Below, one piece after another: positions 10,405 through 59,529 of a stretch of 64,000 nt of DNA. The DNA comes from Candidatus Accumulibacter iunctus (GTDB lineage: Bacteria; Pseudomonadota; Gammaproteobacteria; Burkholderiales; Rhodocyclaceae). How positions within the stretch are numbered: the first letter of the stretch is position 1; each line of letters begins with the position of its first letter. Below the pieces are notes generated by a model. That model saw only the letters and a list, made by a program, of their open reading frames with translations, did not search any database and was not told the origin of the DNA. The stretch spans positions 28,075-92,074 of the forward strand of contig DDUX01000154.1 of the NCBI GenBank assembly GCA_002345025.1, read 5' to 3'. The position numbers and the translations under genes are program-made.

Positions 10405-10488
10405 AATATAACGGTCATCGCTGCGGCAGTCAAATCCAGCGCCGGGATCATCGAGCTGACGCTCGAACAGTCGTTCTGACGATCCCAG

Positions 10489-11538
10489 TCACTTCAACCC
10501 GTACCAAACACCGCGTCCACTGCCATGCTGCTCCAGATGGTTGCGCCCGGTCAGGTCGCGGAAGTGCTGCTTGAGGGTATTGCGGCTGGCTCCGGTCAGT
10601 TTGATCGCATCCATCATCGTGACGCGCCCATGTTCGCGGGCAAATTCGACGATCTGCAGTGACAGTTCGGGCAGCGCGGCCAGCACGATCCTCTCGCGCT
10701 CGACCTTCTTCTCCAGGCGCCGAACCTGTTCGGCCAGCGAGCGCAAGAAGAACACCAGCCAGGGCTGCCAGTTGGGAGCCCTCGCGCGGATGGTGCCCTG
10801 TGTCTGGCGCAGGGCCAGGTAATAGGCTTCCTTGTTCAGCTCGATCACACGCTCCAGCGAGCTGTACGGCACATGGGCGTAACCGGCCTGGAGCAGCAGC
10901 AGGGTCGTCAGCACCCGGCTCAAACGTCCGTTGCCATCCTGGAAAGGGTGAATTTCCAGAAACACCACCACGAAGATCGCGATGATCAACAAGGGGTGCA
11001 GATGCCTCTTCTCCCGTTCGTCGTTCACCCACGACGCCAATTCGGCCATTAAACGTGGCGTGTCAAACGGTGTGGCGGTCTCGAAAACGATGCCGATCTG
11101 TGTCCCTTTTTCATCGAAGGCGGCGACGCTGTTTGAATTCGTCTTGTACTGCCCCCGGTGGCGCGTATCCCTTTCACTGTGGCGCAGCAGGATCTGGTGC
11201 AGTTGCTTGATGTGGTTCTCGTTGACGGGGATGTCCTGCCACGAGCTGAACACCAGATGCATCAGTTCAGCGTAACCGGCCACTTCCTGCTCGTCACGGG
11301 TGTCAAAGGACTGGATGGCCAGATTGGAGAGCAGGCGCTCGACCTCGCGGTCAGTCAGCTTGCTGCCCTCGATACGCGTGGACGAACCGATGCTTTCGAT
11401 GGTCGCAACCCGCCGCAGCGCCGAAAGGCGATCCGGTGCGAGGGTTCCCAAGGCCCGCCAGGCGCCTTTGAATTCGTCGATCCGGGCAATCAGGCTCAGG
11501 ATCTCGGGTGTGATCTGGAGGGTGTCTGAACGTAGCAT
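10489..11538 (-). CDS. Fic family protein (class II, N-terminal inhibitory helix, C-terminal winged-helix)
   Basis: Canonical Fic motif HPFQDGNGRLSR. Inhibitory motif [ST]xxxE[GN] is present as STRIEG. The C-terminal HTH-like tail is ...MMDAIKLTGASRNTLKQHFRDL.... The start is ambiguous (11538 preferred, 11568 possible). The TTG-initiated 390-aa ORF would read through a palindrome and a CRISPR repeat. Confidence 0.85.
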   Translation of the reverse strand: MLRSDTLQITPEILSLIARIDEFKGAWRALGTLAPDRLSALRRVATIESIGSSTRIEGSKLTDREVERLLSNLAIQSFDTRDEQEVAGYAELMHLVFSSWQDIPVNENHIKQLHQILLRHSERDTRHRGQYKTNSNSVAAFDEKGTQIGIVFETATPFDTPRLMAELASWVNDEREKRHLHPLLIIAIFVVVFLEIHPFQDGNGRLSRVLTTLLLLQAGYAHVPYSSLERVIELNKEAYYLALRQTQGTIRARAPNWQPWLVFFLRSLAEQVRRLEKKVERERIVLAALPELSLQIVEFAREHGRVTMMDAIKLTGASRNTLKQHFRDLTGRNHLEQHGSGRGVWYGLK

Positions 11539-11552
11539 GAAACCAATAGTAA

Positions 11553-11606
11553 ACCCATTAACACCCATTTTGAAGCCGAGCGGCCTAGGAATGGGTGTAA
11601 ATGGGT
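11553..11606. promoter_or_regulatory. Four-heptad operator-like element (2x ACCCATT, 22-nt spacer, 2x AATGGGT) upstream of fic
   Basis: ACCCATT at 11553 and 11563; AATGGGT at 11590 and 11600. The 17-nt arms are inverted repeats identical except for one base in the 3-nt linker. The element starts 15 nt upstream of the fic ATG. Confidence 0.55.
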
Positions 11607-11661
11607 AATTTCTTGCTTTGCTCTGAATCGAACGCCTTAGGCGTCGGGTGTTGGTCAGCAA

Positions 11662-11763
11662 GTTTCAATCCACGCGCGCCCGTGAGCCGCGCGACCGTTG
11701 GTTGTGAGCGAAACGACGGCGAAGAACGCGTTTCAACCCACGCGCGCGAGCAAGTCGACGCTG
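11662..11763 (-). CRISPR. Vestigial mini-array: one intact type I-C-like repeat, a 34-nt spacer, and one half-degenerate repeat
   Basis: The minus-strand sense repeat GTCGCGCGGCTCACGGGCGCGCGTGGATTGAAAC (11695..11662) closely resembles the Desulfovibrio vulgaris I-C repeat as I recall it (GTCGCGCCCCGCACGGGCGCGTGGATTGAAAC). A second copy 68 nt away (11763..11730) keeps 17 of the 18 nt at the 3' handle end (...GCGCGCGTGGGTTGAAAC) and is unrelated beyond that. Confidence 0.75.
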
Positions 11764-12114
11764 AACCGTCTGGAACATGCTCCGGAGGCGGATCACGACG
11801 ATCGCGACCACAGGGTTGCCCACGACCGGGGACGGTAGGCCAGCATTTTGTGAACGGGTTCATCGCAGCGCACGAGAGGGCGCCGGACGAGACTGTCCTG
11901 CACCTGGACGCGATCGACCTGGATCACAACTCGCTATCGGGGCTAGAGAGGACTGGTGATGGTGTCTGTGCAGGTAATGTAGGTGTCTGCTGATGTCTGC
12001 GCTGTTCGATTCCACGGTTGGAAACGGCACCGGTGTCCTTGCCAAAAAAATTGGTGAGTGGGTTGAAAGAGTGATTGAAATCCAGGGACTTCTTGCGCCA
12101 CCCCGTTCGGCCAA

Positions 12115-13035
12115 TTAAAGCATCGCGTCATGAAGCCGCCATCCGTCCCCTGCCCGCCATGTCATGGCGTAACTGTCCCTCGCGGCGACCGACCCCAGCA
12201 GCGGCAATAGAAAATTTCGCAGATCGGCGATCACTGCCGCCAGCGGGATCAGAGCGATGGCGTTCTTGTGCAGGAACGCCTGCCATTGTTTTTCCTTCTG
12301 AGCGTCGTTGATGAACTCGTCACTCAACCCGATCGGCACACCCATGGGAATCGCGGTGCGCCGACGCTCGAACGTGGCCGCGACGGCCCGCGACAACACC
12401 GTGCCGTCGAAGTCCGAATGCTTTGCCAGCACCCAGAGGTCGAAGAAATCCTTCATCCGGCTGTTCAGCATGCCGAGCGACGTCAGCGCCTCCAACTTCT
12501 CCGCAATGACCGTGTAACGAGGATAGGCGCGGAGTTGCGGCGCGGGCATCTCGCCAAGGAGGACGGGGTAGTGGACGTCCTCCGGGCCTGGTACGACGGC
12601 ATCCCCGAATCCGATGTCGACCCGCACTGGGCAACGGGCACTGTCCAGCAGCCCCATGAGCGTCACCCGAAAGCCGGCATAGTGCGCCTCCTTGCGGATC
12701 TCGACGGCCGTCACGGAATCAGGCTGAAACACGATGCCGTCCTCAACCTCAATGCGGCAGATGTCCTGGAAGACCTTTGCCAGATGAGGAATCTCGGCTG
12801 ATCCGAACCCAAGGAAATCGGCATCGTGGGTGGGCCGATGCGGCACGTCGAACCACAGGTCGAACAGCAACGCGCCCTTGAGCAGAAACTGGTCGCGCTG
12901 ATCCGAGATGCTCAAGCGGTAGAGCAGGCGCTCCAGCGCATAGCGGGTTAGCAACAGATTGTAGTCCAGCCTATCGGCGCGGGCCTTGTTGAGCAGTCGA
13001 TCCCGGATGGAGGCTCCAATATTCCGGACCGTCAT
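12115..13035 (-). CDS. abiEii: Nucleotidyltransferase AbiEii/AbiGii toxin (type IV TA / abortive infection)
   Basis: N-terminus MTVRNIGASIRDRLLNKARADRLDYNLLLTRYALERLLYRLS...LLKGALLF..DADFLG is typical of AbiEii. ATGA overlap with the upstream AbiEi gene. Confidence 0.85.
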   Translation of the reverse strand: MTVRNIGASIRDRLLNKARADRLDYNLLLTRYALERLLYRLSISDQRDQFLLKGALLFDLWFDVPHRPTHDADFLGFGSAEIPHLAKVFQDICRIEVEDGIVFQPDSVTAVEIRKEAHYAGFRVTLMGLLDSARCPVRVDIGFGDAVVPGPEDVHYPVLLGEMPAPQLRAYPRYTVIAEKLEALTSLGMLNSRMKDFFDLWVLAKHSDFDGTVLSRAVAATFERRRTAIPMGVPIGLSDEFINDAQKEKQWQAFLHKNAIALIPLAAVIADLRNFLLPLLGSVAARDSYAMTWRAGDGWRLHDAML

Positions 13036-13631
13036 CCCAGGCTTTCCAGGTAGGGACGCATCACGTTGGCGACACGGCAAACCTTGGCGTAGCGCCAGAT
13101 GTCGTCACTGGTTACGCGTTTCTCGTGCCATGCCTCACGTAGCGCTTCCAGGGCAACGTCAAGGCCGATCTTGTTGCGGTATTTAAAGCAGTCGGCGACG
13201 GTCTTCGCGACGCAGGTGACGCGGACGGTCACCCTGTCCACGGCATGTTCCTCGACACCCTCGGTGAGTGCCGCACCCGAAAAGCGGACGATGCGTAGCG
13301 GCGGGTAATCGAGCTTCGGCGCGATGGACTTGTTCTCGATAGCCAGCCACACTGCAAACGGGGCCTGGGTGGTCAGGCCATGAAAACGAAGTGCCGAGAG
13401 TAGGCAGACGATTCCTTTGGGCACCCGGCGCGCCACTTCTGCCAGCGCCCCGTGGGCGGAAACCTCTCGCCCGGGCAGCCCGTAGAGACCCCGTCCAACG
13501 CGCTCCAGTTGCCCACGGCAAACGGCACGTGTCAGGGAAACCCGGGAGATTCCCAGAGGTGCCAGATCACACGGGCGGATCAGCCCTTGGGATCGCGCCA
13601 AGTCGATCAGCCTCTCGGCAACGTTGTTCAT
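13032..13631 (-). CDS. abiEi: AbiEi antitoxin / transcriptional autoregulator
   Basis: AbiEi-like sequence (RLIDLARSQGLIRPCDLAPLGISRVSLTRAVCRGQLERVGRGLY...), translationally coupled to the abiEii-like gene. Confidence 0.8.
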   Translation of the reverse strand: MNNVAERLIDLARSQGLIRPCDLAPLGISRVSLTRAVCRGQLERVGRGLYGLPGREVSAHGALAEVARRVPKGIVCLLSALRFHGLTTQAPFAVWLAIENKSIAPKLDYPPLRIVRFSGAALTEGVEEHAVDRVTVRVTCVAKTVADCFKYRNKIGLDVALEALREAWHEKRVTSDDIWRYAKVCRVANVMRPYLESLG

Positions 13632-13946
13632 GTCGGGCATGGTGGGCCATAACATCGGTAAATGTCAATAATTGCCGATGACGTGGAACACGTCGTGGTG
13701 CGGCACACCCAAACCGACTTCGATCCTATCGCAGCTGTCGGAGCGAAAGATGAGGCCATTCCGGGCAAGCAACGCCAGAGAGAAAGATGGCCCGGAGCGA
13801 GTGGAATATGACAAATCAAATCGGTCTTGCTTTGTCGACGTGCCCCACCTCAATTTTCGGCCAGGCAACACCGGTTACGTTTGCGTATCCACACATAAAA
13901 CGAGGCATACTGCCCGAGAAGACGAGACGAGCAGGAAGCAATAGAC

Positions 13947-14981
13947 ATGACTGGAATCAACCGCACCGACCGCTTGCGCCAGATCCAGGGACTACTCAGC
14001 CCCCGCCGCGTCACTTGCCGAAGTGAACTGATGGAAAAGTTCGGCATCTCTCGCGCCACCCTTGGTCGGGACATCCAGGAGTTGCGAGACCGCTTCCAGG
14101 TTCCCATTGACTACGACCCGGAATACGGCGGCTACCGACTCGGCGCTCCTGAAGAAGCCGGAGGCCAGTTCGAACTGCCACACATGTGGTTCTCTGCGGA
14201 AGAGATCCACGCGCTCCTGACCATGCAGCATCTCCTGAGCAACCTCGACACCAGCGGCCTGCTGGGGAGCCAGATCAAGCCACTGCTCAATCGTTTGACG
14301 AAACTGCTGGGAGCGGGTGACAACCCGAGCGCGGAAGTGGCTCGCCGAATCCGAATAGAAACCGTCGCTGCCCGATCCTACCGCCTGGAACATTTCCAGG
14401 CCGTGGGCAGTGGTCTATTGCGACGGCGCCGGCTGGTGATCGGCTACCATGCCCGCGGCACAGACGAGCACACCCGGCGCGAAGTATCGCCTCAGCGCCT
14501 GGTGCACTATCGGGACAACTGGTATCTCGACGCTTGGTGCCACCTGCGCAACCAGCTGCGCGCATTCGCCGTCGACGCGATCCGCGATGTCCGGGTGCTC
14601 GATCGACCGGCCGTCGACATCGACGACACTGAGCTGGATCGGGAATTGGGTAGTGGCTACGGCATTTTCTCGGGCGCCTCGGTGCTCTGGGCCAAGCTAC
14701 TCTTCAGCGCCGAGCGCGCACGGTGGGTAGCCAATGAAAAGTGGCACCCGGCCCAGCGGGGCCGTTTCCTGGACGACGGACGCTATTGGCTATCCCTTCC
14801 CTACAGCCGCGAGCCGGAACTTATCATGGACATCCTGCGCCATGGCCGTCACGTGACGGTACTGGCCCCCGACTCGCTGCGCGACGCAGTTCAGCAGGAG
14901 CACCTCGCGGCGAGCAAGAATCTGGGCGCGTGCTCACAAATTGAGCCTGCCGACCTTCACAATCAGGACAAAGAGGCGTGA
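13947..14981 (+). CDS. HTH + WYL domain transcriptional regulator (YafY/BrxR/CapW-like architecture)
   Basis: N-terminal HTH (CRSELMEKFGISRATLGRDIQELR) and a central WYL segment (LVHYRDNWYLDAWCHLRNQLRAFAVDAI). AGGAAG RBS. Same strand as the cas genes and directly upstream of them. Confidence 0.85.
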   Translation: MTGINRTDRLRQIQGLLSPRRVTCRSELMEKFGISRATLGRDIQELRDRFQVPIDYDPEYGGYRLGAPEEAGGQFELPHMWFSAEEIHALLTMQHLLSNLDTSGLLGSQIKPLLNRLTKLLGAGDNPSAEVARRIRIETVAARSYRLEHFQAVGSGLLRRRRLVIGYHARGTDEHTRREVSPQRLVHYRDNWYLDAWCHLRNQLRAFAVDAIRDVRVLDRPAVDIDDTELDRELGSGYGIFSGASVLWAKLLFSAERARWVANEKWHPAQRGRFLDDGRYWLSLPYSREPELIMDILRHGRHVTVLAPDSLRDAVQQEHLAASKNLGACSQIEPADLHNQDKEA

Positions 14982-15039
14982 CGCCCTCACACGAATCCGC
15001 ATCCCGGCACAACCGAAACCCTTGGAGCCAATCGCAATC

Positions 15040-15645
15040 ATGGAATCACCCAGGATAGACCTCCTTTTTCCGCTGCATGGCCATGAAATTCCCCTGGATC
15101 ACGGCTATGCGCTGTACGCTGCGCTATCCCATGCGCTCGAATCCGCGACCGACCCCTGGCTGCACACACGAGAGGATGTGGGTTTGCACCTCATCCGAGG
15201 GAGCTATCGTGGAAAGGGCCGCTTGGCGCTGAGCCCCGCATCGCGGATTGCCATCCGCCTGCCGGTAACGCTGGTCCACAAGTTCCTTCTCCTGGCGGGC
15301 CAACAACTGACGCTGGGTACCGACCCGCTGCGCTTGGGAATCCCTCAACCCCAAGCCCTCCAGCCTGCTCCCGCGCTCTACGCCCACTTGGTCACCACCC
15401 GTAACGGCCAGGATGAGAGTCGGTTCGACACCGAAATGGCTCACCAATTGGCCGAACTGGCGATTCGAGGTAGCCCGCAACGTGGTCCCCGACGAAGTTT
15501 CACGATCAAGGACAGGAAAGTCGTTGCTCACACGCTGCTGGTCAGCGAATTGACGGCAGAGGAATCCATACGGCTGCAGGAACATGGGCTGGGAGGAAGA
15601 CGGAAGCTGGGGTGTGGAGTGTTTGTACCATGGCAAACGAGATGA
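15040..15645 (+). CDS. cas6: Cas6-family RAMP protein, Cas6/Cmx6 (MYXAN-subtype)-like
   Basis: 201 aa. The C-terminal glycine-rich RAMP loop GLGGRRKLGCGVF parallels GVGHAKAFGCGLL in the locus Cas6e. I recognise the N-terminus IDLLFPLHGHEIPLDHGYALYAALS as Cmx6-like. It sits immediately 5' of a cas3-like start. No profile search was run. Confidence 0.55.
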   Translation: MESPRIDLLFPLHGHEIPLDHGYALYAALSHALESATDPWLHTREDVGLHLIRGSYRGKGRLALSPASRIAIRLPVTLVHKFLLLAGQQLTLGTDPLRLGIPQPQALQPAPALYAHLVTTRNGQDESRFDTEMAHQLAELAIRGSPQRGPRRSFTIKDRKVVAHTLLVSELTAEESIRLQEHGLGGRRKLGCGVFVPWQTR

Positions 15646-15896
15646 CTCTTCTCCTTGCCAAATCGGTCCCGAAAGGCCAGACCCCGAAAACTCTGGTAGC
15701 CCACTCTCTGGAAGTAATGGACGCTTTTGTCGGTCTGTTTGGCACCTTGGTTGAGCCAACACGGCTAGGGCAACGATGGCTGGCTTTTTTCGGGCTGCCG
15801 AACGCGCTTTGGCCGGTTTTCTACCGCCACGGAGCAAAACAGGCGAAACCGGGCTCAGAGTTTGCGCCTGCACGCGTTCATAATGGCTGCCAATAG
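15630..15896 (+). pseudogene. Probable 5' stub of a second cas3 (HD-domain N-terminus only)
   Basis: The 88-aa ORF overlaps the cmx6-like stop by 16 nt. LLAKSVPKGQTPKTLVAHSLEVMDAF resembles the Cas3 HD N-terminal pattern (AHS/AKS ... L.eHL..V), but no HD dyad or helicase motifs follow. It ends 31 nt before the I-E cas3 ATG. Confidence 0.35.
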
Positions 15897-15927
15897 AGGC
15901 GAACACGGCACGCACAGGAGATGAACG

Positions 15928-18729
15928 ATGCGAGATGAGGCGCAGAGTTACTTCCGTTACTGGGGCAAGGCGCGGGCGACGGGTCTGCAGAACGATGCGT
16001 ACCACCTGCTCGTGTACCACTGCCTCGACGTTGCCGCGGTTGGAACCCTCTACCTGCGCCGCTCCCCGGCGTTACTGGACATCTTCCGACACCTCACCGG
16101 CTTCGCAGACGACGAACGGCTCCTGAAGTGGCTGGCGTTCTGGTTGGCTTTGCACGACGTCGGAAAGTTCGCCGAAGCTTTTCAGGGCCAGCAGCCCCAC
16201 ATCGTCGCCTCGCTGCGTGGGCGCGAGCCGCTGGCGTCGAAAACCTATAGCCTGCGGCACGATAGCCTCGGCTGGTTGTTCTGGACAGAAGTCCTTCGGG
16301 ACAAGGCTGCGGCAGAAAGCTGGTTCGGAGCGCGCACTTCCTCCGCCCTCAAGGGGCTGGACTGGTGGGCCAGGGCGGTGACGGGCCACCACGGCATGCC
16401 CCCGCAGCCGGCGAGCGATTGGTTGAGCCACTTCGACAGGGACGACCGCGCGGCTATCTGTGCCTTTGTCGCCGAGTTGCTGGAACTCTTCCTTCCGGGA
16501 GAGCCGCCATGCCTCCCGTCTGCCGATGGTGCCAGGCGCTTTTCGGCGGCGAGCCGTGATGCGTCTTGGTGGCTCGCGGGACTGACCGTTCTTGCAGACT
16601 GGCTGGGGTCGAATTCCGATCGCTTTACTTATGTGACGGCAGCCGTACCGCTGCGCGAATACTGGTTGCGCAGCAAGGGCGTGGCGGTACAGGCGCTTGA
16701 AGCGTCTGGTGTTTTGCCAGCGGCGCAGCGAGTCGACGTGTCGTTCGGCGACCTGTTTCCCGGTATCCAGTCACCCTCTCCCTTGCAGAATTGGGCTTGC
16801 CGTGTGGAGCTGTCGCCGGGACCCCAGATCTACATCCTCGAGGACGTCACCGGTGCCGGGAAAACCGAAGCGGCATTGAAGCTCGCACAGCGGCTGATGG
16901 CAGCAGGCCGCGCCGATGGGTTTTTCGTCGCTTTACCGACGATGGCCACCGCAAACGCGATGTACGGGCGCATAGCCAGTGTGTACCGCCGCCTGTTCAT
17001 GGGCAACGCGAGCCTCGTTCTGGCCAACGGCCAACGTGATCTCGTCGAACTGTTCGCTGCCTCGGTCGTTCCACCTGGCCCTGCTGATACCAGTGTGGGC
17101 GACGAGACGGCAACGGCTCGCTGCACCGCCTGGTTGGCTGACCACAACAAACGTGCGTTGCTCGCCCCCGCTGGCGTAGGTACGATCGACCAAGCCCTGC
17201 TTGCCGTTCTTACCAGCAAGCACCAGTGTCTGCGGCTACTCGGTCTGCTCCGTAAGGTTCTGGTGGTGGACGAGGTGCATGCGTGCGATGCCTACATGCA
17301 GCGAGTCCTCGAAACGCTGCTCGAGTTTCACGCACGCTCTGGCGGCAGCGCCATCCTCCTCTCGGCGACCCTGACCGATCGCATGAAGGAGGAACTGGTT
17401 GAAGCCTTTGCGCACGGCTGTCGCGCCGATCCACCGCGACCGGCTGCGGCATCGGAAACTCCGTATCCGCTGGTCAGCCGCTGGTCGCCAGCGCGACCAG
17501 ATGTGCTTGAACAGAAGCCGCTGGGGACCCGCTTCGACGTTCGCCGCCCGCTCGGTGTGCGCTACATCAGCGAGCCTGATCTGGTTGTTGGCGTCATTGA
17601 AGCGGCGCTGGCTGCTGGCAAGTGTGTTTGCTGGATGCGCAACACCGTTGCCGATGCGCTCGATGCCCACTCTTTGTTCCAGGAGCGCATTCCGGCCGAC
17701 AGGATCATTCTTTTTCACGCCCGCTTCGCGCTGCGCGATCGACTCCATGCTGAAGACCGCGTCCTTGCGGCGTTCGGGAAGGACAGCACTCCGGAGTCCC
17801 GTGCGGGGCGGCTGGTGATCGCCACGCAAGTGGTCGAACAGAGTCTGGACGCCGACTGGGACTTGGTGATCAGCGATCTGGCGCCTGTTGATCGTCTGAT
17901 CCAGCGTGCCGGCCGGCTGCAACGTCATCCGCGCGACACTGCCGGAAGGCGGCTCGCCGACCCTCGCGCGACCGATATGCGCGGCACACCTTGCCTGTGG
18001 GTTCTCGGGCCCGTCTGGGAGGAGAATCCCGATGCAGCCTGGTTTACCGCGGCGTTCCCGCGAGCTGCCAAGGTCTATCCTCACCACGGGCAGCTATGGC
18101 TGACCGCCCAGGCGCTGCGGAAAGCGGATTTCATCACCATGCCCGACGACGCACGTCGCCTTATCGAGTGCGTGTTTGGCGGTGAAACGCCGCTACCGGA
18201 GGCACTGGAAGAGAACGCGATGCGGGCCGTGGGCCAAGCCTACGCCGACGCGGCCGCCGCACAGCAGAACACGGTCAAGCTGGGAAACGGTTACGTTCAT
18301 TGCGGTCTCGACTGGTGGGGGGAGGCAAAGAGCCCTTCGCGGCTTGGCGAGGTGACTGCGACGGTCGTTCTCGCGTGTTGGCGTGGCGACCAGCTGAAGC
18401 TCTGGGCGCCTGGGGCGCTTGCGTACAGCAGCCTGCGCGTTGCCGAGCGGCTGATTGCTGAGGCGATGGAGCCCGAAGAGATGTCCCGGCGAGCCGAGTT
18501 CAATCGGTTTCGGCAGGACTTGCCAGATCACGGGAAATGGTCGGTGGTCCTGGCGCTCGATGAAACACCAGAAGGATGGATTGGGGAGGCCTGGCGGCAG
18601 CCACTGAAAGGACAGCGAGAGCGGGCGCGTTGGCAGTACTGCGCAAAGCTCGGGTTGCGGCAGGTGGTTGCGCCGAGTGCGGCGCACTCGGCGCTGCCCC
18701 GCGATGCGCGGGGAACGGATCGGTCATGA
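15928..18729 (+). CDS. cas3: Type I-E Cas3 (HD nuclease + SF2 helicase)
   Basis: N-terminus YFRYWGKA...YHLLVYHCLDVAAV...LHDVGKF is the HD domain. Helicase motifs GAGKTEA and VVDEVH are present. 933 aa, with an AGGAG RBS. Confidence 0.95.
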   Translation: MRDEAQSYFRYWGKARATGLQNDAYHLLVYHCLDVAAVGTLYLRRSPALLDIFRHLTGFADDERLLKWLAFWLALHDVGKFAEAFQGQQPHIVASLRGREPLASKTYSLRHDSLGWLFWTEVLRDKAAAESWFGARTSSALKGLDWWARAVTGHHGMPPQPASDWLSHFDRDDRAAICAFVAELLELFLPGEPPCLPSADGARRFSAASRDASWWLAGLTVLADWLGSNSDRFTYVTAAVPLREYWLRSKGVAVQALEASGVLPAAQRVDVSFGDLFPGIQSPSPLQNWACRVELSPGPQIYILEDVTGAGKTEAALKLAQRLMAAGRADGFFVALPTMATANAMYGRIASVYRRLFMGNASLVLANGQRDLVELFAASVVPPGPADTSVGDETATARCTAWLADHNKRALLAPAGVGTIDQALLAVLTSKHQCLRLLGLLRKVLVVDEVHACDAYMQRVLETLLEFHARSGGSAILLSATLTDRMKEELVEAFAHGCRADPPRPAAASETPYPLVSRWSPARPDVLEQKPLGTRFDVRRPLGVRYISEPDLVVGVIEAALAAGKCVCWMRNTVADALDAHSLFQERIPADRIILFHARFALRDRLHAEDRVLAAFGKDSTPESRAGRLVIATQVVEQSLDADWDLVISDLAPVDRLIQRAGRLQRHPRDTAGRRLADPRATDMRGTPCLWVLGPVWEENPDAAWFTAAFPRAAKVYPHHGQLWLTAQALRKADFITMPDDARRLIECVFGGETPLPEALEENAMRAVGQAYADAAAAQQNTVKLGNGYVHCGLDWWGEAKSPSRLGEVTATVVLACWRGDQLKLWAPGALAYSSLRVAERLIAEAMEPEEMSRRAEFNRFRQDLPDHGKWSVVLALDETPEGWIGEAWRQPLKGQRERARWQYCAKLGLRQVVAPSAAHSALPRDARGTDRS

Positions 18730-19010
18730 CCAGCATTACGAAGCGACACACGGTTCATCTCCATGCAATGGAGAACGTGGGACATTCCGAGAGCCACAGA
18801 CGAGGAAGGAAGTCTACCTCCCGCAGAGACCGACTAACAAACGCAGAAAGTGGCTTCGGCGACAATTCCGCGTTTATACATGCATCGCAACCATCCACTA
18901 CTCCAGCGCATCAGCGGCTTGCCCGGTTTGGACTATCTTGGTTTCCCGGATTCTGTTGGCGATCGCTCTCGAATTGTGTTTGAAGCAACTTGCACTAAGA
19001 AGCTACACAC

Positions 19011-19039
19011 TTGACACGATCCCTGGCGGTGGCTAGTAT
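19011..19039 (+). promoter_or_regulatory. Candidate sigma70 promoter of the Cascade operon (TTGACA-17 nt-TAGTAT)
   Basis: Consensus -35 at 19011..19016, exact 17-nt spacer, -10 TAGTAT at 19034..19039. It lies in the 446-nt lower-GC cas3-cas8e spacer, about 130 nt upstream of the cas8e ATG. Confidence 0.55.
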
Positions 19040-19175
19040 CGCAGCTGTGGGTCCCGCGCCGGCTGACTGCATGAAATCCGCTCCTCCAAGGTTCGGGTTT
19101 CGTCACCTACTGCGTGGGGTGGCCAGCCTCCAAACTTGGCCACCTCCACCTTGTATTCAAGGAGAACGAAGGAAG

Positions 19176-20819
19176 ATGTCGCTACTGACCGAAGATTGGA
19201 TGCCGGTTCGCTATCGTGATGGCTGCCGCGCTTGGGTCGCACCAAGCGAACTCGCCGATCCCCGCATCGTCGCCTTTGACGCCGATCGTGCCGATTTCAA
19301 CGGCGCCCTCGTGCAGTTCGCGATTGCCCTCCTGCAGACCAGCACCCCCGTGGTTGAGCCCGATGACTGGGACTTCTGGTTCGAGGATCCGCCCGATTCG
19401 GCGACCCTGACCGCTTGGTTTTCACCACTGGCGGCAGCTTTCGAGTACGACGGTGAAGGCGCGCGCTTCCTGCAGGATTTCGAGCTGAGGGCGGGGCGGG
19501 GCGTCTCGTTCGAAATCGCCGGCCTGCTCATCGAAGCGGCGGGAGAACAGTCGGTGCAGCGGAACACCGACCACTTCGTCAAGCACGGTCAGGTGGCGGG
19601 CATGTGTCCCCATTGCGCGTTGACAGCGCTGCTCACGCTGCAGATCAACGCGCCAGCGGGTGGATCAGGCCACCGCACCGGACTGCGCGGCGGCGGGCCG
19701 CTGACCACTCTTGTCCTGTGCCATCCGCAGCGCAGTCTGTGGCACGACCTCTGGCTCAACGTGCGTTCCCGCTCCGAGTTCCTCGCGTCTCAAGGCGACC
19801 CGCGCAAGGCGGCACCGCACTTTCGGTTTCCATGGCTCAGGGAGATCGGCGCGATCCAGCCGGATGGTGGCGAGACCTCACCATTGCTCGTGCATCCGGA
19901 CCATGTCTTCTGGGCGATGCCGCGCCGGATTCGGTTGGACCTGACCGATACGGGCCTTGGCGATTGCGACCTCTGTGGCCGGCACTGCGACAGACTCATC
20001 CGGCGCTACGAAACGAAGAATCACGGCCTCAATTACAAAGGCCCCTGGAACCATCCGCTGTCGCCGTACTACGAGACCAAGGAAGGCTGGCTGCCGATTC
20101 ATCCGCAGCCGGGCGGCATCGGCTACCGTCATTGGCTGGCGTGGGTCATGGGCGTAGCGACGCAACAAAAAGGCAGGCGGCCGGCAACCGTGGTCAGCCA
20201 TTTCCTCGCGCACCTCTTTCCGCGCGCCAAGGGACAGCGTCGCTTGTGGGCCTTTGGTTTCGACATGGACAACATGAAGGCCCGCTGCTGGTACGAAGCG
20301 ACGATACCGCTCTACGGACTGGCCGATTGTCAGCCCGAGGCGCAGCGGCAGGCGCAGGCGGAGGTGGGCCGCTGGCTTGCCGGAGCCGAACTGGCAGCGT
20401 CGTGCTTGCGCAGTGCGGTGAAGGAAGCCTGGTTCGGCAAGGAAGCCCGAGGTGACCTCAGCGCAGTCGAAGCAGGTTTCTGGAGCCGGACCGAGCCGGA
20501 GTTCTATCGGCAGCTCGAGTCGCTCATCACTTCCCTGCGCAGCGATGGTGATGGCGACTCCCGGGTCGATCGCTTGCCGGTCCGGGCCGCTTGGCATCGG
20601 AATCTCATCGACACGTGCGAGAGCCTTTTTGATGGCGAGTTTGTCGGCGTCGCGGCGATCGAACGTCAGAACATGCGACGCGTGGTCAAGTCTTGGCACC
20701 GCCTGAGGGCAAACCTCAGGGGACCGGCCATTCGCAAAGCGCTAGGACTCCCGGACGCCGAAGGTCCTGGCACAAGCAACAAGGCCAAGGGTGCATCCGC
20801 AGCCCCGCGAGCATCCTGA
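19176..20819 (+). CDS. cas8e: Type I-E Cas8e (Cse1/CasA), Cascade large subunit
   Basis: N-terminus MSLLTEDWMPVRY... is typical of Cse1. I chose the ATG at 19176 (AAGGAGAA / AGGAAG upstream) rather than the extended ORF start at 19011. Confidence 0.9.
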   Translation: MSLLTEDWMPVRYRDGCRAWVAPSELADPRIVAFDADRADFNGALVQFAIALLQTSTPVVEPDDWDFWFEDPPDSATLTAWFSPLAAAFEYDGEGARFLQDFELRAGRGVSFEIAGLLIEAAGEQSVQRNTDHFVKHGQVAGMCPHCALTALLTLQINAPAGGSGHRTGLRGGGPLTTLVLCHPQRSLWHDLWLNVRSRSEFLASQGDPRKAAPHFRFPWLREIGAIQPDGGETSPLLVHPDHVFWAMPRRIRLDLTDTGLGDCDLCGRHCDRLIRRYETKNHGLNYKGPWNHPLSPYYETKEGWLPIHPQPGGIGYRHWLAWVMGVATQQKGRRPATVVSHFLAHLFPRAKGQRRLWAFGFDMDNMKARCWYEATIPLYGLADCQPEAQRQAQAEVGRWLAGAELAASCLRSAVKEAWFGKEARGDLSAVEAGFWSRTEPEFYRQLESLITSLRSDGDGDSRVDRLPVRAAWHRNLIDTCESLFDGEFVGVAAIERQNMRRVVKSWHRLRANLRGPAIRKALGLPDAEGPGTSNKAKGASAAPRAS

Positions 20820-20843
20820 TCACCCAGCACAGAGGAAGGAAAG

Positions 20844-21377
20844 ATGTCGATTCAATTCATTGGCAGCACACATGAGCCGACGCGAGTTGGACGCGTACTG
20901 TTTGACTGGTGGCATGGCCTCGAAGAAGATCACGCCAGCCGCGCGATCGTGCGGCGCGCGGCGTCCCCCACAGCGGTCGCACTGACTGGACCATATCAGC
21001 GGCTGTATCGTCGCCTGCTCAAAGCTGGCTGGCCGGCCGATGCGACCGATGGGCAGGACGAGCGGCTGGCGGCGATTGTCGGGTTGCTGGCTCACGTCAG
21101 GGATGACACGGCACGTTCGAGTGGCGGTTCGCAATCGATCTCGGCAGCGATGAGTCAAAGGAGAACCGATCGCCCCCTGGTCAGCGAGCTGCGCTTTCGG
21201 CGCCTCCTCGAGTCGCCGGACTCCGACTCGCTGTTCACTGCGCTGCGCCGCGTGTTGCCATTGATGGACTACAGGATCGACGTGCTGGGGCTGGCCAACG
21301 ACTTCTTCTACTGGGGCGATGCAGTAAGGAAGCGATGGGCGTACGACTACCAGTGGCCAGAAGAAAAGAAAACCTGA
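20844..21377 (+). CDS. cse2: Type I-E Cse2/CasB (Cas11e), Cascade small subunit
   Basis: 177 aa, in the position and of the size of Cse2, with the C-terminal W-rich motif (DFFYWGDAVRKRWAYDYQW). Confidence 0.85.
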   Translation: MSIQFIGSTHEPTRVGRVLFDWWHGLEEDHASRAIVRRAASPTAVALTGPYQRLYRRLLKAGWPADATDGQDERLAAIVGLLAHVRDDTARSSGGSQSISAAMSQRRTDRPLVSELRFRRLLESPDSDSLFTALRRVLPLMDYRIDVLGLANDFFYWGDAVRKRWAYDYQWPEEKKT

Positions 21378-21436
21378 TATCGAGCAAGAGCCCGAATGAC
21401 TGAGCAGTTTCTCGCATCCCATACAAGGAGCCACGA

Positions 21437-22501
21437 ATGTCCCGTTTTGTTCAGCTACACCTTCTGACCAACTATGCGCCCTCCAATCTCAACCGCGATG
21501 ACACTGGGCGACCGAAGAATGCCCTCGTCGGGGATGCGCTCCGCTTGCGCATTTCCTCCCAGTGTCAGAAGCGCGCATGGAGAACTTCGGATGCCTTTGC
21601 AGGTGCGTTGGGCGATCACCTCGGCACGCGAACGAAGCGTCTCGGCAACGAGGCGTTTCAGGCCCTTTGCAACGCTGGGGTGCGCGAAGCAGATGCGCGC
21701 AAATGGAGTCGCATGATCGCCGGCTGTTTCGGAAAGCCGAAATCCGAGAAGAAGACCGATAATGATGAGGATCTCGAGATCGAGCAGCTCGCACACGTGA
21801 GCACCGACGAGCGGGCTGCGGTGCGGGAGTTGGTAGCAAAATGCGCGCAACGTGGCAGCGGACCGGAGGGGGAAGAGCTGTCGCTATTGCGCAAGCCTCG
21901 ACACGACGTTGACATCGCAATGTTTGGACGCATGCTTGCCGATTCTCCGCAGTTCAATGTCGAAGCTGCCGTGCAGGTTGCGCACGCGATAACCGTGCAC
22001 CGTTGCACCGTCGAGGACGACTACTTCAGTGCCATCGACGACCTCAACCGCGATGCGCCCAACGCCAGCCACATTGGTGAGCGCGGGTACGGAGCGGGAT
22101 TGTTCTACCAGTATGTATGCATCAATAGAGAGCTGCTGTCTGACAACCTCGGCTGCGACGGTGAGCTGACTGCCAGGGCGCTGGCGGCACTGGTGCATGC
22201 AGTGACCAAGGTCACGCCCAATGGTATGCAGAGCAGTTTCGCTTCGCGCGCGTACGCGAGCTACGTGCTTGGGGAAAAAGGCGATCAGCAGCCCCGTTCG
22301 CTTGCCGAGGCTTTCCTCCAGCCCATCAAGCCGACGGGTGACCGCGGCATGCTCGATTCGGCTATCGCGAAGCTCGAAACATGGCAGAAGCACTTCGACG
22401 ACGTGTACGGTGCCTGCGCCGCCAGCCGCTACACGATCAACGTGGTCACGGGTGACGGGCGGCTGACCGACCTCGTTGCTTTCGTGCAGGCCGAACCATG
22501 A
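21437..22501 (+). CDS. cas7: Type I-E Cas7e (Cse4/CasC), Cascade backbone
   Basis: MSRFVQLHLLTNYAPSNLNRDDTGRPK... is the hallmark Cas7e N-terminus. 354 aa. Confidence 0.95.
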   Translation: MSRFVQLHLLTNYAPSNLNRDDTGRPKNALVGDALRLRISSQCQKRAWRTSDAFAGALGDHLGTRTKRLGNEAFQALCNAGVREADARKWSRMIAGCFGKPKSEKKTDNDEDLEIEQLAHVSTDERAAVRELVAKCAQRGSGPEGEELSLLRKPRHDVDIAMFGRMLADSPQFNVEAAVQVAHAITVHRCTVEDDYFSAIDDLNRDAPNASHIGERGYGAGLFYQYVCINRELLSDNLGCDGELTARALAALVHAVTKVTPNGMQSSFASRAYASYVLGEKGDQQPRSLAEAFLQPIKPTGDRGMLDSAIAKLETWQKHFDDVYGACAASRYTINVVTGDGRLTDLVAFVQAEP

Positions 22502-23223
22502 CCGAGTTTCTGGTATTCCAGCTTCGCGCGCCGCTCGCATCCTGGGGCGAGCCCGCAGTTGGCGAGTACCGAGGCAGCCGCGAATACCCCGGCGAATCAG
22601 CGTTGATCGGCCTACTCGGGGCAGCTCTGGGTGTGCGAAGAGATGACGAACCCGCACAGCAGCGGCTACGTGCGGGTTACGCCTTCGCCGTGGGTGTGCA
22701 CGAGGCCGGAACGCTCATGCGCGATTACCATACGGCGCAGGTTCCCAGCCGAACGACACTGAAAGGACGCCCGCGTGTGACAAGAAGCGACGAGTTGTCG
22801 CCGTCTCGGCATGAGTTGAACACGATCCTGTCAACGCGAGACTACCGGCAGGGCGCAGCGTGCATCGTCGCCATGCAGTCGATGCCGGACGCGGTGTACT
22901 CGCTGGCTGCCTTGGCAGAGGCTTTGCTCCAGCCACGTTTTGTACTGTACCTCGGACGCAAGGCCTGCCCTCCGGCGGCGCCACTTTGTCCGCAGATCAT
23001 AGCGGCCGACAATGCCCTCGCTGCGCTGCACTCGTACGGCATCGAGCTGGCTAGTCGCAACGGGGTGACGGTTCGTCGACTTGTGCGACTGGCTTGGTCG
23101 GAGCGTACGCTGGCGGGGGCCGAACCTGACCTCAGCGCGCCCCGTAAGGATCGCGTCATCCGCCGGGCAGCGTGGCAGTTCGGCGATCGTACGGAACACA
23201 TCAAACTGCTTGCGGGAGCATGA
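22498..23223 (+). CDS. cas5: Type I-E Cas5e (CasD)
   Basis: MTEFLVFQLRAPLASWGEPAVGEYR... is the hallmark Cas5e N-terminus. Overlaps the cas7 stop. Confidence 0.95.
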   Translation: MTEFLVFQLRAPLASWGEPAVGEYRGSREYPGESALIGLLGAALGVRRDDEPAQQRLRAGYAFAVGVHEAGTLMRDYHTAQVPSRTTLKGRPRVTRSDELSPSRHELNTILSTRDYRQGAACIVAMQSMPDAVYSLAALAEALLQPRFVLYLGRKACPPAAPLCPQIIAADNALAALHSYGIELASRNGVTVRRLVRLAWSERTLAGAEPDLSAPRKDRVIRRAAWQFGDRTEHIKLLAGA

Positions 23224-23915
23224 ACATGTACTTCAGCTTGATCACTGCCGCCGAAGGACGCGAGAGCGCCGCAGCGCACGAACGAATGCGAGCAGACGCC
23301 TACGCAGACCACCAGTGGCTGTGGCGCTTTTTCCGAACAGTTCCCGGGGGAAGCCGCGAGTTCCTGTTTCGCCGTCAGGACCGTGCAGACGCGCCCCGCT
23401 ACTACGTGGTATCCCAGACTCAGCCGGACGGCGGCAATTCGGCGTGGAGCGTGCAGAGCCGCGAGTACGCACCGATCCTTCGCCCGGGAGACCAGCTTCA
23501 GTTCGACTTGCGTGCCAATCCCGTCGTTACCGTTACAGACGGCAACCAGTCCAGACGCCATGATGTGGTGATGCATGGGAAGAAGCTGTTGCTGCAGCAG
23601 CGGGGTCTCAGCGCTTGGGCGCAGTGGAAGGAGAGCGACAAGCCGGCGCTTGCCGATCTAGTAAGGGACACATGCAGTACTTGGCTCGACCAACGTGCCG
23701 AGCGCTTGGGCTGCGAGATCGATCGCGACAGCCTCGCCGTAGAAGCATACGAGCAACATCGAGGGAAGGGGGAGAAGGTACAGTTCAGCACGGTGGATTT
23801 TTCAGGTGGACTCACCGTCGTCGAGCCGACGCGGATGCTTGATGCGCTATACCGCGGAGTCGGCCATGCAAAAGCCTTCGGTTGCGGGCTGCTGCTCGTA
23901 CGCCGGTCTGCTTGA
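23220..23915 (+). CDS. cas6e: Type I-E Cas6e (CasE), crRNA endoribonuclease
   Basis: Starts at the ATG in an ATGA overlap with cas5. MYFSLI...HQWLWRFF... and the C-terminal G-rich loop GVGHAKAFGCGLLLV are typical of CasE. Confidence 0.9.
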   Translation: MNMYFSLITAAEGRESAAAHERMRADAYADHQWLWRFFRTVPGGSREFLFRRQDRADAPRYYVVSQTQPDGGNSAWSVQSREYAPILRPGDQLQFDLRANPVVTVTDGNQSRRHDVVMHGKKLLLQQRGLSAWAQWKESDKPALADLVRDTCSTWLDQRAERLGCEIDRDSLAVEAYEQHRGKGEKVQFSTVDFSGGLTVVEPTRMLDALYRGVGHAKAFGCGLLLVRRSA

Positions 23916-24127
23916 ATGCCTCGCTCGCCGATCCAGTGTGAATGGGGTGGGGCCATCGCCGTACCAGGCGTTGGGTTTGGCGGCTGGCCTCGAGTGCGCG
24001 GTGTGGCCGGGTGGACGTCCGGGCGCTGCGGTGTTACGAGTGGATGGCGGGGGACTCGGGGCACGCGGCGAACTGCTTGGCCGCTGGGTCGATCTGAGGG
24101 GCTTCGTCGGACGAGGAGTGTGGAAGC

Positions 24128-25331
<1,204 letters not shown>

Positions 25332-25420
25332 CAATTGGGATAATGCTTCCTGCATGCCATGTTCTCGGTAGAAATGTCGATGGCTCATTTCCTTATACAA
25401 ATCAGTCTGATAGACTAAGT
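25332..25420 (+). promoter_or_regulatory. CRISPR leader (AT-richer, 89 nt between the cas2 stop and the first repeat)
   Basis: AT-richer than the flanks by eye (…cttatacaaatcagtctgatagactaagt). It directly abuts repeat 1, and the degenerate repeat is at the opposite end of the array. Confidence 0.75.

Positions 25421-56548: not shown

Positions 56549-59529
<2,981 letters not shown>

What the first reader, a model, noticed from the sequence alone, without database searches (positions are those of the whole stretch)
11662..11763. Orphan mini-array with a type I-C-like repeat, unrelated to the I-E repeat of the main array
The minus strand reads GTCGCGCGGCTCACGGGCGCGCGTGGATTGAAAC (11695..11662), then a 34-nt spacer, then a second copy exactly 68 nt upstream (11763..11730). 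The second copy keeps only the 3' 18 nt (17/18 identical, ...GCGCGCGTGGGTTGAAAC) and is unrelated in its 5' half. The intact copy has the GTCGCGC start, a GC stem-loop and the GTGGATTGAAAC 3' handle of the I-C repeat family. I recall the D. vulgaris repeat as GTCGCGCCCCGCACGGGCGCGTGGATTGAAAC and the B. halodurans repeat as ending GTGGATTGAAAT. This is incompatible with the Cas6e-type repeat GTGTTCCCCGCGCCCGCGGGGATGAACCG used 14 kb downstream. The half repeat is on the leader-proximal side for this orientation, so it looks like a deletion junction rather than normal trailer decay. Together with the Cmx6-like Cas6 and the cas3 stub at 15.0-15.9 kb, this is a second independent trace of a lost or partly retained non-I-E type I system. 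The AbiE and WYL genes now sit between the pieces. Alternatively, a single-spacer unit with preserved handle sequences could be a crRNA-like regulatory RNA (CreA-style). That alternative is speculation.
Basis: partly seen in the sequence, partly recalled or inferred. Interest (0 to 1): 0.7.

Follow-up and report, generated by a model that had tools for sequence, protein, structure and literature searches.

The report
Leftover scrap of type I-C CRISPR array
This is a two-repeat, one-spacer leftover of a lost type I-C CRISPR array, stranded between two mobile toxin cassettes in an Accumulibacter defence island; it is most likely inert debris, not a new RNA device.

Summary
On the minus strand, a full 34-nt repeat (11695..11662) is preceded, 68 nt upstream, by a copy that keeps only the 3' 18 nt (17/18), with a 34-nt spacer between. 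It is CRISPR-derived. The full copy matches the published type I-C repeat of Accumulibacter SSA1 at 33 of 34 bases. A profile built only from other I-C repeats finds both copies and nothing else in 1.77 Mb. It is not cognate to the neighbouring Cmx6 Cas6: about 60 relatives of that Cas6 use a different repeat (...GATGCCGAAAGGCGTTGAGCAC). WYL-cas6-cas3' is the truncated head of a type I-MYXAN operon, so the island holds traces of two lost systems plus a complete I-E system. The remnant lies in 367 nt of unassigned DNA between an AbiE cassette (edge 12015) and a Fic cassette (edge 11647). The window has no I-C cas genes. The spacer has no protospacer or promoter-seed target. The upstream copy has no repeat hairpin. 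Diverged relatives that share the AbiE cassette lack the remnant. A genuine I-C array (L092) shows the same 3'-only decay in its trailer. Verdict: orphan, degraded I-C array remnant; ordinary; low interest. Whether the rest of the genome encodes a type I-C system could not be checked.

The parts
11662..11695 (-). R2: full-length I-C-type repeat, GTCGCGCGGCTCACGGGCGCGCGTGGATTGAAAC. It is a variant with a stem/loop 3 nt shorter than the SSA1 repeat.
   Evidence: Sequence. 33/34 bases identical to the Accumulibacter SSA1 I-C repeat. nhmmer E=1.1e-8 with an independent I-C profile. Best Rfam hit is CRISPR-DR9 at 20.6 bits, below the 45-bit gathering score. Hairpin of -13.5 kcal/mol.
11696..11729 (-). 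Single 34-nt spacer, GCGTTCTTCGCCGTCGTTTCGCTCACAACCAACG.
   Evidence: No protospacer in the window (best 23/34), in phage records, in plasmids or in IMG/VR. No seed+PAM target in the island's intergenic regions.
11730..11763 (-). psiR1: degenerate repeat. Only the 3' 18 nt (11747..11730, GCGCGCGTGGGTTGAAAC) are retained, and the 5' half is unrelated.
   Evidence: nhmmer matches model positions 19-36 only, E=2.7e-4. The predicted fold pairs the handle itself, so there is no canonical repeat hairpin.
11764..12014 (.). 251 nt of unassigned DNA between psiR1 and the AbiE cassette edge. It holds no detectable repeats, no protein-family hits, and no similarity to the cas1'/cas2 of relatives.
10471..11647 (-). 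Fic cassette: gene at 11538..10489 plus an upstream palindrome at 11540-11619. Its edge lies 15 nt from R2.
   Evidence: Pfam Fic. Proteins at >=90% identity occur in many taxa. DNA homology at 87-90% in Nitrosomonas, Pseudomonas and Rhodoferax contexts ends at 11647 at the latest.
12015..13777 (-). AbiEi/AbiEii toxin-antitoxin cassette with about 100 nt of conserved tail. The inverted handle-like motif at 12056-12069 lies inside this tail.
   Evidence: Pfam. 97.7% and 94% identity to L100, L105 and L108-L111, with the same end point at 12015.
13933..15833 (+). Truncated head of a type I-MYXAN operon: the WYL regulator (13947-14981), an intact cas6/cmx6 (15040-15645) and the first ~68 codons of the MYXAN cas3 (15630-15833). 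It is not cognate to the mini-array.
   Evidence: Pfam and NCBIfam. blastn to the more complete Accumulibacter locus L002 covers only this span, at 87.6%. tblastn finds WYL in 29 loci and the stub in 33 loci. dN/dS is 0.10 for WYL and 0.18 for cas6.
15928..30280 (+). Complete type I-E system (cas3, cse1, cse2, cas7, cas5, cas6e, cas1, cas2) and its array at ~25481-30280, with repeat GTGTTCCCCGCGCCCGCGGGGATGAACCG.

Best explanation
The pair is an orphan, decayed remnant of a type I-C CRISPR array of the kind found in other Candidatus Accumulibacter genomes. One old spacer is flanked downstream by a variant but complete repeat. Upstream, it is flanked by a repeat that has kept only its 3' 18 nt. 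The I-C cas genes and the rest of the array are no longer at this locus (inferred history). The remnant now sits in 367 nt of unassigned DNA between an AbiE cassette and a Fic cassette. Both cassettes are mobile modules, judged by their sharp homology edges in other genomes. The island also holds a truncated I-MYXAN operon head and a complete I-E system. The remnant most likely does nothing. It may be transcribed passively by read-through from abiEii towards fic, since no terminator was predicted between them (inferred). No cognate Cas5c or Cascade is encoded nearby to process or load the transcript. The upstream copy also lacks the hairpin needed to generate the crRNA 5' handle.
For: Repeat family: R2 is identical to the published Accumulibacter SSA1 I-C repeat at 33/34 bases. 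An independent I-C profile hits R2 (E=1e-8) and psiR1 (E=3e-4) and nothing else nearby. Across 1.77 Mb it hits only this locus and the array of L092, which lies next to a Cas1c gene. Decay pattern: the L092 trailer holds many copies that keep only ...(GCG)TGGATTGAAAC, interleaved with intact variants of altered loop and length at 63-69 nt spacing. Orphan status: the 64-kb window has no I-C cas genes. The adjacent Cas6 belongs to a family that uses a different repeat, and that repeat is absent from the window. Cassette boundaries: the Fic cassette ends at 11647 and the AbiE cassette at 12015. GC content dips to 0.59-0.60 across 11-14 kb. No sign of function: no promoter or terminator was predicted. 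psiR1 has no canonical hairpin. The spacer has no protospacer and no seed+PAM target. Relatives sharing the AbiE cassette or the WYL/AbiE adjacency lack the remnant. Literature: CRISPR-Cas systems in Accumulibacter are often gained and lost, and 6 of 43 genomes carry I-C. Mini-arrays without a conserved position or a target are read as degraded repeats (PMC10120712).
Against: The rest of this draft genome could not be searched, so an I-C system on another contig that uses this unit in trans is not excluded. R2 keeps a complete stem-loop and a perfect 11-nt handle, and psiR1 keeps exactly the spacer-proximal bases a crRNA 5' handle needs. Regulatory mini-arrays show that same pattern. All 11 assemblies carrying the locus are 100% identical here, so selection could not be measured in either direction. 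The 251-nt stretch upstream of psiR1 has no identified origin.
Confidence: 0.8

Rival explanations
1. It is a working orphan mini-array. An I-C system encoded elsewhere in the genome transcribes and processes it into a single crRNA that guards against an unknown invader.
For: R2 is a complete I-C repeat with a stable hairpin and a perfect handle. psiR1 keeps the handle with one change, and the spacer length (34 nt) is canonical. I-C systems occur in 6 of 43 Accumulibacter genomes.
Against: The 64-kb window has no I-C cas genes. psiR1 lacks the stem-loop needed for 5' processing. No promoter was predicted. No protospacer was found in phage, plasmid or IMG/VR data, which include EBPR viromes. 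R2 itself differs from the nearest known array repeat by three indels.
Confidence: 0.08
2. It is a crRNA-like regulator of the CreA/CreR type. A degenerate mini-array guides a Cascade by partial complementarity to repress a promoter, for example that of fic, abiE or a cas operon.
For: The architecture resembles described regulatory mini-arrays: two repeat-like units, one degenerate, with the spacer-proximal bases kept (PMC8501985, PMC10120712). It sits in a composite CRISPR island next to toxin genes, and composite loci are enriched in mini-arrays.
Against: The repeat type matches neither Cas system present. Rfam and pairwise alignment show no relation to the I-E or MYXAN repeats. No seed+PAM target exists in the island's intergenic regions: there were 5 hits at 8/10 against 2.2+/-1.6 expected, and none had a TTC PAM. 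The best match in the window is 23/34, with the matches scattered. Diverged relatives lack the unit.
Confidence: 0.04
3. It is a repeat decoy (Racr or solitary-repeat-unit type). It would have been carried in by a mobile cassette to sequester the Cas proteins of an I-C system.
For: One intact repeat lies within 15 nt of the edge of a highly mobile Fic cassette. RNA anti-CRISPRs are solitary repeat mimics (PMC10651486).
Against: The repeat lies outside both cassettes' conserved extents and is absent from every other copy of them. IMG/VR has no hits for the repeat. The presence of a spacer and a second phased copy argues for array origin.
Confidence: 0.03
4. It is a chance resemblance, or a dispersed non-CRISPR (REP-like) repeat.
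For: The GC-rich palindromic core CGCGCG is common in this genome. The hairpin energy is not unusual for this base composition (z = -1.16).
Against: R2 matches a known I-C repeat at 33/34 bases. The profile E-value is 1e-8, and a second phased hit follows at the canonical period. There are no further copies in the window or in 117 loci.
Confidence: 0.02

Closest known systems
Type I-C CRISPR arrays of Candidatus Accumulibacter (SSA1/SSB1 repeat class; bioRxiv 10.1101/2022.10.12.504627, Table S4)
   Same: The start GTCGCGCG, the loop CTCACGGG, the CGCGCG 3' stem arm and the TGGATTGAAAC handle are the same, giving 33/34 bases identical. The spacer is 34 nt and the period is 68 nt.
   Different: Only one complete repeat and one 3' fragment are present. 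The repeat is 34 nt rather than 37. There are no adjacent I-C cas genes and no leader.
Decaying trailer end of a genuine I-C array (L092: cas1c-cas2, 11 perfect repeats, then ~9 degenerate ones)
   Same: Copies that keep only the 3' ...GCGTGGATTGAAAC sit 63-69 nt upstream of intact-looking variant repeats with altered loops. This matches the psiR1/R2 pattern.
   Different: In L092 the decayed units are still attached to a live array and its adaptation genes. Here they are isolated between two unrelated cassettes.
Regulatory mini-arrays (CreA of CreTA; CreR; crRNA-like RNAs: PMC8501985, PMC9458426, PMC10120712)
   Same: Both have two repeat-like units, one degenerate, around a single spacer, in a CRISPR-rich island next to toxin genes.
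   Different: Those lie inside a cognate cas operon, are conserved in position, and have a spacer whose seed matches a nearby promoter next to a PAM. None of these holds here.
Solitary repeat units / RNA anti-CRISPRs (PMC10651486)
   Same: It is a stand-alone intact repeat away from any cognate array.
   Different: Those are encoded in phages and plasmids and lack a phased second copy with a spacer. This repeat is chromosomal, lies outside the mobile cassettes, and was not found in IMG/VR.

Membership tests
Type I-C CRISPR repeat family | Repeat sequence: GTCGC... start, GC-rich stem-loop, 11-nt ...TGGATTGAAAC 3' handle | tested here: met
   33/34 bases identical to the SSA1 I-C repeat and 29/34 to the L092 repeats. 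Independent profile E=1.1e-8. The L092 array lies next to Cas1c, which scores 249.6 bits.
Type I-C CRISPR repeat family | Reaches the curated Rfam CRISPR-DR threshold | tested here: not met
   The best Rfam family is CRISPR-DR9 at 20.6 bits, against a gathering score of 45; E=0.062.
CRISPR array (functional locus) | Three or more regularly spaced repeats with unique spacers | tested here: not met
   There is only one full and one 3'-partial copy. No further phased copies were found.
CRISPR array (functional locus) | Cognate cas genes in the neighbourhood or genome | tested here: inconclusive
   The 64-kb window has none. The other contigs of GCA_000584995.1 could not be searched.
Type I-MYXAN array (cognate of the neighbouring Cas6/Cmx6) | 36-nt repeat ending GATGCCGAAAGGCGTTGAGCAC | tested here: not met
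   About 60 Cas6/Cmx6 loci use that repeat, as do published Accumulibacter loci. R2 shares only 22 aligned bases with it, and the window has no copy of it.
CreA/CreR-type regulatory mini-array | Located within or next to the cognate cas operon | tested here: not met
   The flanking genes are fic and abiEii. The cas systems present are I-E and a I-MYXAN fragment, and both use different repeats.
CreA/CreR-type regulatory mini-array | Spacer seed partially complementary to a nearby promoter next to a PAM | tested here: not met
   There were 5 hits at 8/10 seed positions against 2.2+/-1.6 for shuffled spacers. None had a TTC PAM, and total matches were 10-16 of 34. The window-wide best is 23/34.
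CreA/CreR-type regulatory mini-array | Position and sequence conserved in related loci | tested here: inconclusive
   Eleven assemblies are 100% identical because they come from one population. Diverged relatives L105 and L108-L111, which share the AbiE cassette, lack the unit. L112-L114 show the same AbiE-cas1'-cas2 gene order and also lack it.
Racr / solitary repeat unit | Encoded on a virus, plasmid or other mobile element | tested here: not met
   IMG/VR gave 0 hits. The repeat lies outside the conserved extents of the Fic and AbiE cassettes.
REP-like dispersed repeat | Many copies scattered through the genome | tested here: not met
   There is no other copy in the window or in 117 loci totalling 1.77 Mb. 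The whole genome was not testable.

The most novel reading that the evidence does not exclude
The unit could be an exapted single-guide RNA gene kept after the local I-C system was lost. It might serve an I-C Cascade encoded elsewhere in the genome. Alternatively, it might act as a decoy or regulator against incoming I-C-bearing elements, with read-through from the abiE operon supplying transcription.
Probability: 0.07. Interest if true: 0.55.

Novelty: new member of a known kind. Interest (0 to 1): 0.2.

Why it matters
On its own it matters little, because degraded orphan repeats are common by-products of CRISPR turnover. Its value is as a marker of history. This Accumulibacter defence island has held at least three type I systems: I-C (this remnant), I-MYXAN (the WYL-cas6-cas3' head) and the surviving I-E. 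Toxin-antitoxin cassettes are embedded in the debris. That supports the published picture of rapid CRISPR-Cas gain and loss in this wastewater organism. It also warns annotators not to pair the stray Cas6 with the stray repeat.

Tried and rejected
(1) Pairing the mini-array with the Cmx6 Cas6. Rejected because 80 Cas6 loci show a different cognate repeat.
(2) Protospacer search for the spacer in the window, phage records, plasmids and IMG/VR, with N at every sixth position. Only chance-level hits were found.
(3) Searching for the repeat in IMG/VR and in the metagenome collection. IMG/VR gave 0 hits. The metagenome scan gave one hit, a variant trailer repeat of an unrelated I-C array. That collection did not return the window's own locus from the JGI samples that carry it, so absence there is weak evidence.
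(4) Measuring conservation in other assemblies. All are 100% identical, so there is no signal.
(5) Looking for gene remnants (cas1, cas2 and others) in the 251-nt stretch and in the intergenic ORFs. None were found.
(6) Looking for further decayed, phased repeats. None were found. TGGAATCGAAC at 12014-12004 (8/11, 274 nt from the psiR1 end) is suggestive but not significant.
(7) The inverted handle-like motif at 12056-12069(+). It belongs to the conserved tail of the AbiE cassette, not to the array.
(8) The idea that the AbiE-adjacent cas1'-cas2 of relatives is the lost I-C adaptation module. The subtype is ambiguous (I-G 147, I-C 129, I-D 127 bits), and no DNA continuity with the window could be shown.
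(9) Identifying the strain from the Accumulibacter CRISPR paper. This genome is not in its tables.
(10) A seed+PAM regulatory target in the island. None was found.

Full report
OBSERVATION. The minus strand reads GTCGCGCGGCTCACGGGCGCGCGTGGATTGAAAC at 11695..11662 (R2). A 34-nt spacer (11729..11696) precedes it. Upstream of the spacer lies cagcgtcgacttgctcGCGCGCGTGGGTTGAAAC at 11763..11730 (psiR1). The repeat finder reports the 18-nt pair at 94% identity and a 68-nt spacing. The window holds no other copy of the 34-mer at up to 3 mismatches. The 16-nt handle pattern occurs twice against 0.18 expected.

IS IT CRISPR-DERIVED, AND OF WHICH TYPE? Rfam's best match to that exact 34-mer, though below threshold, is CRISPR-DR9 (...GGAUUGAAAC; 20.6 bits against a 45-bit gathering score, E=0.06). 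Independent comparators give stronger evidence. A preprint on Accumulibacter CRISPR systems lists consensus repeats in its Table S4. The type I-C repeat of strain SSA1 is GTCGCGCGCTCCTCACGGGGCGCGCGTGGATTGAAAC. R2 matches it at 33 of its 34 bases, with three single-base gaps in the stem and loop. By comparison, R2 shares 22 aligned bases with the MYXAN-type repeat and 21 with the window's I-E repeat.

The single metagenome hit to a loop-free version of the repeat is a contig, L092, that carries cas1, cas2 and an array. Its Cas1 scores 249.6 bits against the Cas1c model. Its array has 11 perfect copies of GTCGCGCCCCGCGCGGGGCGCGTGGATTGAAAC at 66-68 nt spacing. I built a profile from SSA1, SSB1 and three L092 repeats only. 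It finds R2 full-length (E=1.1e-8) and psiR1 over model positions 19-36 (E=2.7e-4), and nothing else in the surrounding 801 nt. Across the window plus 117 fetched loci (1.77 Mb), it hits only this locus, its identical copies and L092. The pair is therefore a genuine derivative of the I-C repeat family, not a dispersed REP-like element and not chance.

SURROUNDINGS. The window comes from GCA_000584995.1, contig JFAW01000003.1. Its accession is adjacent to the Accumulibacter genomes SK-02 and BA-93, and the closest relatives of its proteins are from Accumulibacter. The gene order is:
- acrB, an MFP gene and tetR (-)
- fic (-, ATG at 11538)
- the mini-array (-)
- abiEii and abiEi (-)
- a WYL regulator (+)
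- cas6 of the Cmx6 type (+, probable start at 15040)
- an 88-codon ORF (+)
- a complete I-E operon (cas3 of 933 aa through cas2), followed by a roughly 4.8-kb I-E array
The rest of the window is housekeeping, with no I-C cas genes. GC content drops to 0.59-0.60 across 11-14 kb, against 0.66-0.70 in the flanks.

THE NEIGHBOURING Cas6 IS NOT THE PARTNER OF THIS REPEAT. The Cas6 belongs to the family NCBI names type I-MYXAN Cas6/Cmx6. I fetched 80 genomic loci encoding relatives. In these, cas6 is the first gene, about 8 kb of cas genes follow, and then comes an array. In about 60 loci that array's 36-nt repeat ends in GATGCCGAAAGGCGTTGAGCAC. The same repeat is published for the Accumulibacter strains UW6, Bin19 and SCELSE-2, where the system is labelled type I-A. 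No such repeat exists in the window.

A WYL regulator lies directly upstream of cas6 in 29 of these loci. The 88-codon ORF after cas6 matches the N-terminus of the gene that follows cas6 in 33 loci. At the DNA level, only window 13933-15833 aligns to the more complete Accumulibacter I-MYXAN locus L002, at 87.6%. WYL-cas6-cas3' is therefore the sharply truncated head of a I-MYXAN operon. WYL and cas6 have evolved under purifying selection relative to L002 (dN/dS 0.10 and 0.18). But this trace and the mini-array come from two different systems, and WYL belongs to the MYXAN module rather than lying 'between the pieces'.

WHAT FLANKS THE REMNANT. The Fic protein is at least 90% identical in very many taxa. 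In Nitrosomonas, Pseudomonas, Rhodoferax and metagenomic contexts, DNA homology to the window runs from just past the stop codon to 11647 at the most, which is 15 nt short of R2. The AbiE pair is 97.7% identical in L100, L105 and L108-L111. After a 166-nt REP-type insertion in those loci, homology resumes and ends at window 12015 in every case. The inverted handle-like motif at 12056-12069(+) that I had noted lies inside this conserved AbiE tail, so it is not part of the array.

The remnant thus occupies 367 nt (12014..11648) of DNA that belongs to neither cassette. The 251 nt upstream of psiR1 carry no detectable repeat, no protein-family signal, and no similarity to anything fetched. In the relatives, the AbiE tail is followed by a 5'-truncated cas1 and a cas2. 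That cas1 scores 147 bits against Cas4g/Cas1g, 129-131 against Cas1c, 127 against Cas1d and 94 against the MYXAN model, with no I-E hit. This AbiE cassette therefore recurs in CRISPR debris. Continuity between that adaptation module and the window's remnant could not be shown.

DELETION JUNCTION OR DECAY? psiR1's missing 5' half does not coincide with any detectable cassette boundary. The nearest boundary is 251 nt away. The trailer of L092 shows that ordinary decay in this repeat family leaves copies retaining only ...(GCG)TGGATTGAAAC. One such copy lies 69 nt upstream of an intact-looking variant, GTCGCGCGCCGTGTGGGCGCGCGTGGATTGAAAC. That is the same pattern as psiR1 and R2. R2 is itself a length variant of the nearest known repeat. 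The pair is best read as a slice of an old array trailer. An older junction at psiR1 cannot be excluded.

TESTS FOR FUNCTION.
- No sigma-70-like promoter or intrinsic terminator is predicted between abiEii and fic. Any transcription would be read-through (inference).
- R2 folds into the expected hairpin (-13.5 kcal/mol). psiR1's best fold pairs the handle itself, so it lacks the substrate shape for the processing that would create the crRNA 5' end. This rests on established knowledge of Cas5c processing and was not tested here.
- The spacer has no match in the window (best 23/34), in phage records, in plasmids or in IMG/VR.
- No seed+PAM target exists in the island's intergenic regions. There were 5 hits at 8/10 seed positions against 2.2+/-1.6 for shuffled spacers, and none had a TTC PAM.
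- Eleven assemblies carry the locus, but all are 100% identical, which gives no information on selection.
- Diverged relatives that share the AbiE cassette or the WYL/AbiE adjacency do not have the unit.
By the criteria of Shmakov et al. (PMC10120712), a mini-array with no conserved position in a cognate locus and no target is classed as degraded repeats.

VERDICT. The link to the Cmx6 Cas6 is refuted. The deletion-junction and CreA-style readings are unsupported. The best explanation (about 0.8) is an inert, orphan remnant of an Accumulibacter-type I-C array stranded between two mobile toxin cassettes. This is consistent with the reported frequent gain and loss of CRISPR-Cas in this genus. 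The main caveat is that the other contigs of the genome could not be searched for an I-C system. Interest is low (0.2). It is a new instance of a known kind of feature.

Noticed in passing
window 13933-15927: WYL, an intact cas6/cmx6 and a cas3' stub are fused head-to-tail to a complete I-E operon. The stub ORF stops at 15896 and the I-E cas3 ATG is at 15928, on the same strand. The I-E system may now be transcribed from the WYL-regulated I-MYXAN promoter. The orphan Cas6 shows purifying selection (dN/dS 0.18) although no cognate repeat exists in the window.
   Followed up: partly
L043 9662-9758; also L003 ~9817, L014 ~9588, L018 ~9780, L025 ~9766, L049 ~9412: Intact I-MYXAN loci often carry a solitary cognate repeat-like unit 200-600 nt upstream of cas6. 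In L043 this is a two-unit mini-array with a 35-nt spacer. These are candidate Cas-regulating crRNA-like elements for this subtype.
   Followed up: partly
window 12015-13777; L100, L105, L108-L114: A discrete ~1.76-kb AbiEi/AbiEii cassette with an identical end point is followed by a 5'-truncated cas1 plus cas2 in L105 and L108-L114. L100's contig ends within that cas1. In the window and in L105 it abuts the I-MYXAN WYL gene. This is a recurrent association of this cassette with CRISPR debris.
   Followed up: partly
window 10471-11647: The Fic cassette is 87-90% identical at the DNA level across Accumulibacter, Nitrosomonas, Pseudomonas and Rhodoferax contexts. It has a 39-nt-arm imperfect palindrome (11540-11619) directly upstream of the ATG, which is a likely operator. 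It looks like a widely mobile module.
   Followed up: partly
L092 1760-2550: A genuine I-C array has a ~900-nt trailer of decaying repeats in which the 3' TGGATTGAAAC handle persists long after the 5' half is lost. This suggests asymmetric decay, or selection on the handle.
   Followed up: no
window 12004-12014 (-): TGGAATCGAAC (8/11 to the I-C handle) starts exactly at the AbiE cassette junction. It lies 274 nt (4 x 68.5) from the end of psiR1. It could be another decayed repeat, but it is not statistically significant.
   Followed up: partly
L100 3958-4123; the same insertion in L108-L111: A 166-nt REP-type doublet (GTCATCCCCGCGAAAGCGGGGATCC ... GATTCCCGCTTGCGCGGGAATGACGG) is inserted immediately after the abiEii stop codon in relatives. 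It is absent from the window.
   Followed up: no
literature (bioRxiv 10.1101/2022.10.12.504627, Table S4): The systems called 'type I-A' in Accumulibacter UW6, Bin19 and SCELSE-2 carry the I-MYXAN-type repeat GTGCCGTCATCTTTGATGCCGAAAGGCGTTGAGCAC. They are probably I-MYXAN systems rather than I-A.
   Followed up: no
window 58739-58826 (+): Rfam anti-hemB (Burkholderia RNA 7) sRNA match at 67.8 bits, above the gathering threshold. This is consistent with a betaproteobacterial host.
   Followed up: no
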